DNA of 64,000 bases from Escherichia coli (lineage in GTDB: Bacteria; Pseudomonadota; Gammaproteobacteria; Enterobacterales; Enterobacteriaceae): the NCBI RefSeq assembly GCF_009931435.1, contig NZ_CP043414.1, one strand, 5' to 3'. Below the pieces are notes generated by a model. That model did not search any database. It had not been told where the DNA came from and saw only the letters and a program-made list of their open reading frames with translations. A program made the position numbers and the translations under genes. Below are positions 16,076-16,620 of the stretch, in pieces (within the stretch, counting starts at the first letter, position 1; the number at the start of each line of letters is the position of its first letter).

Positions 16076-16620
16076 ATCAAAAATGGTTTGGTTATCGCCC
16101 AGGATGAGATATGGGTGCTATAAATATATTATATTCAGGGATATTTATTTTTTGATTGGGTCTTCATTTGCATAATCTGAATGGTGTACCCGAAAAACGT
16201 CAGCATCCTAACAGCACCAGGATTTAAGGTGAAATTTAACATCCATCACAGACCGGTCAATGCTGCCACCAACCGGTCTTTACTTGCTCGTCGTTATAAT
16301 TTTGTGGGTAACAGTTCGGGAAACAAGGAATTCCTTCCGGAACACCCCGGTATCATCCGATAGCATTGACGTCAATCATCAGCGCGACGGTGAGTTTTTT
16401 TAATCGAATCATAGGATGGTAACGTTAAGCACGATTACGGGTCATAGTAAAACTCCTGAGCAGGCGGCACTATGCCGCTTTCACAGGAGTTCTGAATGCT
16501 GGTGCTTTCTGTATGGCATAACCATGCCCCTCGCGGCTAAGTGCCTGCACACTTCTCTCTTTGTATGTCATTTTTGCAATGCATTGGCCGAATTCTGGTA
16601 ATTCAAATGAGTTTTACTCT

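What the first reader, a model, noticed from the sequence alone, without database searches (positions are those of the whole stretch)
16451..16491. Nested inverted repeat in the non-coding flank of the inserted gene
AACTCCTG...CAGGAGTT (outer, 16451-16458 / 16484-16491) encloses GCGGCA-CTA-TGCCGC (inner, 16464-16478) about 130 nt 3' of the island gene stop. It could be its terminator, a protein-binding site, or a remnant of the insertion junction.
Basis: seen in the sequence. Interest (0 to 1): 0.3.

Follow-up and report, generated by a model that had tools for sequence, protein, structure and literature searches.

The report
Terminator-like hairpin inherited from displaced operon
The nested inverted repeat is real and is most likely an ordinary, rather weak transcription-terminator hairpin that belonged to a toxin-antitoxin operon which the "island" gene later displaced, so it is a routine feature rather than a discovery.

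Summary
AACTCCTG/CAGGAGTT (16451-16458/16484-16491) encloses GCGGCA-CTA-TGCCGC (16464-16478), 129 nt past the stop of the 617-aa gene (16621-18474, minus strand).

The locus is the variable interval between yiiE and fabY in Escherichia coli. The hairpin is single-copy and specific to this locus. About 3369 of 5426 complete E. coli genomes carry it; K-12 has deleted it.

It is not part of the island DNA. It lies in an older flank shared with genomes that carry a relE-like/nadS toxin-antitoxin pair instead. There it sits 38 nt after the nadS stop. The window still holds the last 20 nt of nadS (16530-16549).

Only the minus-strand RNA, the gene's strand, has a U-tract after the stem (UUUUACUAU). 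The fold is stable (-25.9 kcal/mol, z = -4.0) and kept in all seven alleles. There is no covariation, diversity equals the flanks, and a classical terminator score is borderline.

Its 3' arm also holds AGGAG, 7 nt before an ATG. That ATG opens a 73-aa ORF in some strains and only 6 codons here.

Best reading: a weak-to-moderate intrinsic terminator or attenuator co-opted by the island gene (confidence 0.55). No 3'-end data could be read. Interest is low.

The parts
16451..16491 (-). Two-tier hairpin: an 8-bp outer stem, an internal loop (5 x 5 nt on the plus strand; RNAfold places one isolated pair inside it), and a 6-bp inner stem with a 3-nt loop. As minus-strand RNA it reads AACUCCUG-UGAAA-GCGGCA-UAG-UGCCGC-CUGCU-CAGGAGUU.
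   Evidence: Sequence read. Folds. Both stems are kept in all seven alleles seen.
16444..16452 (-). U-rich tail UUUUACUAU immediately 3' of the CAGGAG arm on the minus strand. The first two U can also pair with the AA at the stem base.
   Evidence: Other alleles read UUUUGCUAU, UUUUGUUAU and, once, UAUUGCUAU. The plus strand has no U-tract after the stem.
16453..16457 (-). AGGAG, a Shine-Dalgarno-like sequence inside the 3' arm, 7 nt upstream of the ATG at 16445-16443.
16425..16445 (-). Relic start of a small ORF, here called hypB (my label, not a database name). It reads ATG ACC CGT AAT CGT GCT TAA: 6 codons, then a stop in the window. The same start gives 73 aa in strain SJC33 (WP_001550354.1), 70 aa frameshifted in UTI89, 30 aa in L002 and L008, and 11 aa in O157.
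16515..16528 (-). Small hairpin GGCAUGGUUAUGCC. In nadS-type genomes it lies directly after the nadS stop.
16530..16549 (-). Remnant of the last 20 nt of the nadS antitoxin gene, 16 of 20 nt identical, with the stop codon lost. Homology to nadS-type genomes ends at 16549/16550.
   Evidence: A longer remnant of about 75 nt survives in the divergent locus L031. In the window, homology beyond 16549 is not significant.
16621..18474 (-). The 'island gene': a 617-aa, AT-rich ORF found only in Escherichia and Shigella, function unknown.
   Evidence: No Pfam, PADLOC, NCBIfam, PHROGs or PDB match. Only 8 close homologues were found. GC content is 35-43%.
15708..15953 (-). yiiE (ribbon-helix-helix protein), the next intact co-directional gene, about 500 nt downstream of the hairpin.

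Best explanation
The repeat encodes a two-tier RNA hairpin followed by a short U-tract on the minus strand. It most likely acts as a factor-independent transcription terminator or attenuator of weak-to-moderate strength, and as a 3'-end protecting stem-loop. Its targets are transcripts that enter from the variable 'cargo' upstream and would otherwise run on towards yiiE.

It was not brought in by the island gene. It belongs to an older, Escherichia-specific flank that originally followed the relE-like/nadS toxin-antitoxin operon. When the 617-aa gene replaced most of that operon, the last 20 nt of nadS and this hairpin stayed behind. The hairpin now serves, or at least sits, as the island gene's 3' element.

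Shown here: the structure, strand asymmetry, location, population distribution and evolutionary origin. Inferred: that RNA polymerase actually terminates there.
For: 1. The fold is stable and significant on the minus strand (-25.9 kcal/mol, z = -4.0). It persists inside a 226-nt context.

2. A U-rich tail (UUUUACUAU, 6 U in 9) follows the stem only on the minus strand, the strand of the upstream gene.

3. Position. The hairpin lies 129 nt after the 617-aa stop in the window and 38 nt after the nadS stop in nadS-type genomes.

4. My own scan for a hairpin followed by a U-tail ranks it 12th among all sites on both strands of the 64 kb.

5. Conservation across alleles. All seven alleles from 40+ loci keep both stems. 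Most variable positions lie in the internal and apical loops: 5 of 14 unpaired columns vary, against 3 of 28 paired columns.

6. Two allele changes help pairing only as minus-strand RNA. Allele D keeps an inner-stem pair as G-U. Allele E adds two G-U pairs to the outer stem.

7. An analogous feature elsewhere. In Salmonella, Citrobacter, Enterobacter and Kluyvera the syntenic nadS is followed within about 4-11 nt by unrelated G+C-rich hairpins, -12 to -19 kcal/mol.

8. Origin. The same hairpin segment, 16441-16549, accompanies either cargo, and hairpin alleles are shuffled between cargo types. A divergent orthologue of the island gene is followed by a 75-nt nadS remnant.
Against: - The simple consensus terminator scan does not call it, because the stem is interrupted by a large internal loop.
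- A d'Aubenton-Carafa-type discriminant gives -3.6 for the window allele and -37.5 to +11 across alleles. A clear terminator in the same window scores +52. The formula was recalled from memory and used with modern energy parameters.
- No compensatory changes were found.
- Nucleotide diversity in the hairpin (0.070) is no lower than in the flanks (0.056 and 0.087).
- One change (C16484T, alleles B and F) makes an A-C mismatch on the minus strand but a G-U pair on the plus strand.
- One allele interrupts the U-tract. The second copy in 'both'-type genomes has no U-tract at all.
- K-12 and the L031 lineage have lost the hairpin.
- No transcript 3'-end data could be accessed.
Confidence: 0.55

Rival explanations
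1. Neutral relic. The palindrome once had a function, or arose by chance or rearrangement. It now persists only because the flank is young and little diverged, and it has no present role in the window.
For: - No covariation.
- Diversity equals that of the flanks.
- The terminator score is borderline.
- It has been lost without obvious consequence in K-12 and in L031.
- The neighbouring small ORFs hypB and hypA and the nadS stub are all decaying.
- Nested inverted repeats also occur inside coding sequence (22747-22792).
Against: - Both stems survive in every allele, while the loops have accumulated five or more different changes.
- Nested repeats are about 40 times more frequent than in shuffles.
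- The strand-specific U-tract and the position after a stop codon are what a terminator needs.
Confidence: 0.2
2. Translation-initiation mask. The 3' arm carries the Shine-Dalgarno AGGAG and the flank pairs with the AUG of the small ORF hypB. On this reading the hairpin controls translation of that ORF on read-through transcripts from the toxin-antitoxin operon. In the window it would be a fossil, because the ORF has only 6 codons.
For: - AGGAG, a 7-nt spacer and ATG are conserved in all alleles.
- The ORF is annotated at 73 aa in SJC33 and has a hydrophobic segment.
- The AUG is predicted to be paired in every allele folded.
Against: - The ORF is frameshifted or truncated in most lineages: 70 aa out of frame, 30, 11 or 6 aa.
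- No homologues occur outside Escherichia. The apparently low identities are frameshift mosaics.
- No Pfam family matches.
- The hairpin is kept even where the ORF is dead.
Confidence: 0.12
3. DNA-level recombination hotspot or junction element. The palindrome promotes or marks breakpoints at which cargo is exchanged in the yiiE-fabY variable interval.
For: - Two independent rearrangement junctions fall in the AACTC(C) of the two arms. One is at 16450/16451 in genomes that carry both cargos (L003, L015, L028). The other is at about 16484-16487 in L031 and L032.
- An IS5 insertion lies 9 nt away in L005.
Against: - There are only two junctions. The first shows extended microhomology with the hydrolase 3' end, 13 of 17 nt.
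- The IS5 site is a CTAG target, which IS5 prefers (established knowledge).
- No recombinase or transposase is nearby. The 617-aa protein has no such domain.
- There are no other copies in the genome.
- In most comparisons the hairpin lies inside continuous homology.
Confidence: 0.08
4. Operator. The nested palindrome is a binding site in double-stranded DNA for a local regulator such as NadS (helix-turn-helix) or YiiE/YiiF (ribbon-helix-helix).
For: Dyad symmetry, and DNA-binding proteins encoded on both sides.
Against: - It lies downstream of nadS and about 500 nt upstream of yiiE, not at a promoter.
- None of the four half-sites occurs in the relE-hydrolase, yiiE or fdhE-yiiE intergenic regions. 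The region upstream of the 617-aa gene holds only single, unpaired hexamer matches.
- K-12 keeps yiiE without it.
Confidence: 0.05

Closest known systems
Rho-independent (intrinsic) transcription terminators of E. coli
   Same: A G+C-rich stem-loop followed directly by a U-rich tract on the transcribed strand, a short distance after a stop codon. An A-run upstream mirrors the U-run.
   Different: - The stem is interrupted by a large internal loop, which gives low stability per nucleotide.
- The U-tract has only four consecutive U.
- A classical discriminant score is borderline.
- No 3' end has been mapped.
Hairpins after nadS in Salmonella, Citrobacter, Enterobacter and Kluyvera (between convergent nadS and fdhE)
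   Same: Same gene upstream, same kind of G+C-rich hairpin shortly after the stop. The Kluyvera hairpin is also two-tiered.
   Different: - No sequence homology.
- Those hairpins lie about 4-11 nt after the stop, not 38 nt, and sit between convergent genes.
- The E. coli hairpin lies in an Escherichia-specific segment that also carries yiiE.
Dispersed palindromic repeats of enterobacteria (REP/BIME, ERIC/IRU, Box C)
   Same: An intergenic, imperfect palindrome of about 40 nt that can fold on either strand.
   Different: - It is single-copy and tied to one locus: a median of 1 and a maximum of 2 places per genome.
- It has no sequence resemblance to those consensus sequences (judged from memory).
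- It gives no Rfam hit.
Hairpins that sequester the ribosome-binding site in 5' leaders (for example of small toxic membrane proteins)
   Same: The Shine-Dalgarno sequence lies in the descending arm and the AUG is predicted to be paired.
   Different: - The downstream ORF is decayed in most lineages and has 6 codons in the window.
- No antisense RNA or dedicated promoter was identified.

Membership tests
Intrinsic (Rho-independent) terminator | Stable G+C-rich stem-loop in the nascent RNA | tested here: met
   The minus strand folds at -25.9 kcal/mol, z = -4.0. The hairpin alone is -19.6 kcal/mol over 37 nt.
Intrinsic (Rho-independent) terminator | U-rich tract of about 7-9 nt immediately 3' of the stem, on the transcribed strand only | tested here: met
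   UUUUACUAU on the minus strand. The plus strand reads CUGAAUGCU. The tract is short, with 4 consecutive U.
Intrinsic (Rho-independent) terminator | Located shortly downstream of a co-directional gene | tested here: met
   129 nt after the 617-aa stop, and 38 nt after the nadS stop in other genomes.
Intrinsic (Rho-independent) terminator | Passes a quantitative terminator discriminant or consensus scan | tested here: inconclusive
   Not called by the consensus scan. The d'Aubenton-Carafa-type score is -3.6 for the window allele and -37.5 to +11 across alleles (formula recalled from memory).
Intrinsic (Rho-independent) terminator | RNA 3' ends map to the U-tract; termination occurs in vitro without factors | not testable with these tools
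   Term-seq data exist for O157:H7 Sakai (PMC7547250), but no supplementary files are held.
Structured RNA under selection (covariation) | Compensatory base changes that maintain pairs | tested here: not met
   0 of 15 pairs show changes on both sides and 11 never vary. The sequences are too similar for this to count against the structure.
Dispersed palindromic repeat (REP/BIME, ERIC) | Many copies per genome at unrelated loci | tested here: not met
   1 place per genome at the median and 2 at most, always at this locus. One copy in the window. No Rfam match.
Mobile-element end or recombination site (IS200/IS605-type hairpin end, integron attC) | An adjacent cognate transposase or integrase, and repeated copies that bound the mobile unit | tested here: not met
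   The 617-aa protein has no transposase or integrase domain in Pfam, NCBIfam, PADLOC, PHROGs or PDB and only Escherichia/Shigella homologues. The duplication in 'both'-type genomes is explained by a microhomology join.
RBS-sequestering leader hairpin | The Shine-Dalgarno sequence and start codon of a functional downstream ORF lie within the helix | tested here: inconclusive
   AGGAG lies in the 3' arm, 7 nt before the ATG, and the AUG is paired in predictions. The ORF has 6 codons in the window and is disrupted in most lineages.
Operator palindrome | Half-sites at or near a regulated promoter, recurring in the regulon | tested here: not met
   No half-site occurs in three of the four neighbouring intergenic regions. 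The fourth, upstream of the 617-aa gene, has only isolated single hexamers.

The most novel reading that the evidence does not exclude
The hairpin is a dual-purpose riboregulator. As a leaky terminator it would set how much transcription from the upstream toxin-antitoxin operon (or the island gene) continues. At the same time it would hide the Shine-Dalgarno sequence and AUG of a small membrane-protein ORF (hypB), coupling that ORF's expression to read-through. In addition, its palindromic arms would act as preferred breakpoints for cargo exchange in this hypervariable interval.
Probability: 0.1. Interest if true: 0.4.

Novelty: new member of a known kind. Interest (0 to 1): 0.13.

Why it matters
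It matters little beyond annotation. The result shows that the non-coding flank of a strain-variable orphan gene is a leftover of an older toxin-antitoxin operon, made up of a 20-nt gene stub and that operon's 3' hairpin, and not DNA that came in with the gene.

This helps date and orient the rearrangements at the yiiE-fabY hotspot. It also warns against reading every structure beside an 'island' as part of the island.

If the hairpin does terminate, it insulates yiiE from whichever cargo sits upstream.

Tried and rejected
- Known RNA family: no Rfam hit at the site, even at E <= 10.
- Known EHEC small RNA Esr41/EcOnc14: it is encoded in SpLE1, not here.
- Copies in other species: a structured pattern found nothing in the 100,044 species representatives. 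A 21-mer found one E. coli genome, one E. coli contaminant in a Micromonospora assembly and one chance hit.
- Transposon-end idea, raised by the PGAP label 'transposase' on half of the island gene: no domain or homology support. The ORF is in fact intact in most loci.
- Coding potential across the hairpin (plus-strand ORF 16416-16601): rejected, because allele lengths differ by 1 nt (58, 59 and 60 nt between the fixed flanks).
- A longer nadS remnant at 16550-16598 in the window: not significant, p about 0.09.
- A long ORF after the hairpin in L024: the contig is probably chimeric, since its distal part matches no E. coli genome.
- 'Divergent' hypB homologues as a source of covariation: they are frameshift mosaics of the same Escherichia sequence.
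- An outer long-range helix (16516-16526 with 16426-16436): predicted in alleles A, B and D but not in C or E, so it is not claimed.
- nadS in the PIRT-Seq paper: a different K-12 paralogue.
- Literature on ECs4812, ECs4813 and ECs4814: none found.
- Supplementary tables of the Sakai Term-seq study: not held.

Full report
**1. Observation**

The sequence is as described. AACTCCTG (16451-16458) and CAGGAGTT (16484-16491) enclose GCGGCA-CTA-TGCCGC (16464-16478). The nearest gene is a 617-aa ORF on the minus strand, 16621-18474, with its stop at 16621-16623. The repeat therefore begins 129 nt 3' of that stop.

Perfect nested repeats of this design occur three times in the window, against 0.07 per dinucleotide shuffle. 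Real sequence is already about threefold enriched for plain 8-bp inverted repeats, and one of the three nested sites lies inside a gene. The excess is real but should not be over-read.

The minus-strand RNA folds at -25.9 kcal/mol (z = -4.0). The plus-strand RNA folds at -25.4 (z = -2.6). Single-stranded DNA folds at -14.2 (z = -5.2).

**2. Where it is**

The window is Escherichia coli-like DNA. The order is fdoG-fdoH-fdoI-fdhE (plus strand), then on the minus strand yiiE (15708-15953), the hairpin, the 617-aa gene and fabY (18851-19840).

The interval between yiiE and fabY is low in G+C and varies between strains. The 617-aa protein matches nothing in Pfam, PADLOC, NCBIfam, PHROGs or the PDB. 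Its only homologues are in Escherichia and Shigella. NCBI's annotation pipeline (PGAP) labels its second half 'transposase' in several genomes. Nothing supports that label, and the ORF is intact in most loci. O157 has a nonsense codon at position 311.

**3. The hairpin belongs to the older flank, not to the island**

A 241-nt query around the hairpin matches 3369 of 5426 complete E. coli genomes, with a median of one place per genome and a maximum of two, essentially always on the chromosome. In every locus I inspected, that place is the yiiE-fabY interval.

Three configurations exist:
- **(a)** yiiE, hairpin, 617-aa gene, fabY. This is the window and O157.
- **(b)** yiiE, hairpin, nadS, a relE-like gene, a hydrolase gene on the opposite strand, fabY. 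This is UTI89 and many others. The toxin-antitoxin pair was described as relE-1/yiaG-1, TA27, in PMC7232551.
- **(c)** Both cargos, with two copies of the 99-bp segment 16451-16549 (SJC33, L015, L028).

Homology between (a) and (b) runs from yiiE through the hairpin and stops at 16549/16550. In (b) the hairpin lies 38 nt after the nadS stop, and window 16530-16549 matches the last 20 nt of nadS at 16 of 20 positions. Hairpin alleles are not tied to cargo type. The O157-type allele, for example, occurs next to nadS in L021.

A divergent orthologue of the island gene (77% nucleotide identity; L031 and L032) is followed by a clear nadS 3' remnant of about 75 nt, encoding PAKALLRAIVNDLKNMLR*.

In Salmonella, Citrobacter, Enterobacter and Kluyvera the module of hydrolase, relE-like gene and nadS sits between fabY and fdhE. 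The toxin-antitoxin module is therefore ancestral at this position, and the 617-aa gene later replaced most of it. The nadS stub and the hairpin were left behind.

K-12 lacks the hairpin because it has deleted 16324-18370. It still carries the first ~100 nt of the island gene.

**4. What the hairpin looks like as a functional element**

Only the minus strand, the strand of nadS and of the island gene, has a U-rich tail after the stem. It reads UUUUACUAU here, and UUUUGCUAU or UUUUGUUAU in other alleles. The hairpin persists when 226 nt of context are folded. In my own scan for a hairpin followed by a U-tail it ranks 12th in the 64 kb.

Seven alleles were recovered from E. coli genomes and 18 metagenome contigs. 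All keep both stems, with energies of -21 to -33 kcal/mol for the 68-nt region. Most variable positions lie in the internal and apical loops.

Individual changes point both ways:
- Allele D keeps one inner-stem pair as G-U on the minus strand only.
- Allele E adds two G-U pairs to the outer stem, also on the minus strand only.
- The C16484T change in alleles B and F is a G-U pair on the plus strand but an A-C mismatch on the minus strand.

In the other genera an unrelated G+C-rich hairpin follows nadS within about 4-11 nt. A hairpin after nadS is thus a recurrent, analogous feature.

**5. Evidence against a strong terminator**

- The consensus scan does not call the site.
- A d'Aubenton-Carafa-type discriminant (formula from memory, modern energies) gives -3.6 for the window allele and -37.5 to +11 across alleles. 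A textbook terminator in the same window scores +52.
- There is no covariation.
- Diversity in the hairpin is 0.070, against 0.056 and 0.087 in the flanks.
- The second copy in type (c) genomes abuts the hydrolase stop codon and has no U-tract.
- No transcript 3'-end data could be read. Term-seq exists for O157 Sakai, but the tables are not held.

**6. A second feature in the same sequence**

On the minus strand the 3' arm contains AGGAG (16457-16453). An ATG follows 7 nt later (16445-16443). That ATG opens a 73-aa ORF with a hydrophobic segment in SJC33, annotated WP_001550354.1. I call it hypB here. The same start gives a frameshifted 70-aa ORF in UTI89, 30 aa in L002 and L008, 11 aa in O157, and 6 codons in the window.

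Relative to SJC33, the window lacks 392 bp that hold the rest of this ORF and the 5' part of the next one. All homologues are from Escherichia, and the apparently distant ones are frameshift mosaics. If the ORF is ever expressed, the hairpin would mask its ribosome-binding site, and predictions also pair the AUG. In the window this is a fossil.

**7. Breakpoints**

Two independent rearrangement junctions fall in the AACTC(C) of the two arms:
- The join between the hydrolase 3' end and copy 2 in type (c) genomes, at 16450/16451. The sequences there match at 13 of 17 nt, so a microhomology join explains it.
- The end of homology in L031, at about 16484-16487.

An IS5-family insertion 9 nt from the hairpin in L005 sits at a CTAG target. 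Two cases are too few to claim a hotspot, so I list this as a low-probability rival.

**8. Alternatives tested**

- No Rfam family matches.
- It is not a dispersed repeat.
- No exact copies occur in other species.
- It is not the Esr41 small RNA.
- No half-sites occur in three of the four neighbouring intergenic regions, and only isolated single hexamers in the fourth.
- It is not coding on either strand, given the 1-nt length differences between alleles.

**9. Verdict**

The most likely identity is an ordinary intrinsic-terminator-like hairpin of modest predicted strength. It was inherited from the displaced relE/nadS operon and now lies 3' of the island gene (confidence about 0.55). The main rivals are a functionless relic (0.2) and a relic mask for a ribosome-binding site (0.12).

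It is a new member of a known kind and of low general interest. The useful by-product is the reconstruction of how this variable locus was assembled.

Noticed in passing
window 16621-18474 (minus strand): The 617-aa AT-rich gene is an orphan restricted to Escherichia and Shigella, with no detectable domain. PGAP annotates it in several genomes as a 304-aa 'transposase' plus a pseudogene, although the full ORF is intact there. O157 strains carry a nonsense codon at position 311 (ECs_4812/ECs_4813).
   Followed up: partly
window 16324-18370, compared with NC_000913.3 (L006): E. coli K-12 has a 2-kb deletion that removes the hairpin and all but the first ~100 nt of the 617-aa gene. K-12 is therefore a deletion derivative, not the 'empty site'.
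   Followed up: partly
window 16285-16445, compared with L003 1627-2178: The window carries remnants of two small co-directional ORFs (hypB, 73 aa, and hypA, 92 aa, in SJC33 and UTI89-type strains), fused by a 392-bp deletion. The shared flank is only about 81% identical between the two haplotypes, far below the locus average.
   Followed up: partly
L003 2184-2282 and 4001-4099; also L015 and L028: Some genomes carry both cargos and two diverged copies (about 89-95% identical) of the 99-bp hairpin segment. The hydrolase stop codon TAA overlaps the first arm of copy 2.
   Followed up: partly
L031 and L032 (metagenome contigs): In a divergent Escherichia lineage the island-gene orthologue (77% nucleotide identity) is followed by a nadS stub and then by different genes (a 116-aa ORF and a DUF6708 protein) in place of the hairpin and yiiE.
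   Followed up: partly
L034-L041 (Salmonella, Citrobacter, Enterobacter, Kluyvera): The module of hydrolase, relE-like gene and nadS is syntenic between fabY and fdhE across genera. Some loci also have a second HigB-like toxin-antitoxin pair or a ParD antitoxin next to fabY. yiiE and yiiF are absent there, so they are an Escherichia-specific insertion.
   Followed up: no
window 15555-15581: yiiF, a paralogue of yiiE present in K-12 and O157, is absent from the window. About 600 bp are missing between fdhE and yiiE, and 15982-16065 resembles the region upstream of yiiF at 77% identity, which suggests a former tandem duplication.
   Followed up: no
window 46751-46802: A textbook bidirectional terminator, GGAAAAAAGGCGACAGAGTAATCTGTCGCCTTTTTTC (as read on the minus strand), is one of the other two nested inverted repeats in the window.
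   Followed up: no
window 22747-22792: The third nested perfect inverted repeat (GCTGGCAA...TTGCCAGC around GCGGA...TCCGC) lies inside a 300-aa ORF (22654-23556, minus strand).
   Followed up: no
window 15500-19900 compared with E. coli genomes: Core genes here are only about 94-97% identical to most E. coli, and 98-99% to a few strains such as RMDEC465. The window probably comes from a divergent Escherichia lineage.
   Followed up: no
L011 (Micromonospora craterilacus assembly, 445-bp contig, coverage 0.76): This contig is E. coli sequence from this locus, most likely contamination of that assembly.
   Followed up: partly
window 18821-18844 (minus strand): A terminator-like hairpin, GAGAGGGGCGGTGCTGCCTCTCTC, lies directly after the fabY stop and upstream of the island gene's promoter region.
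   Followed up: no
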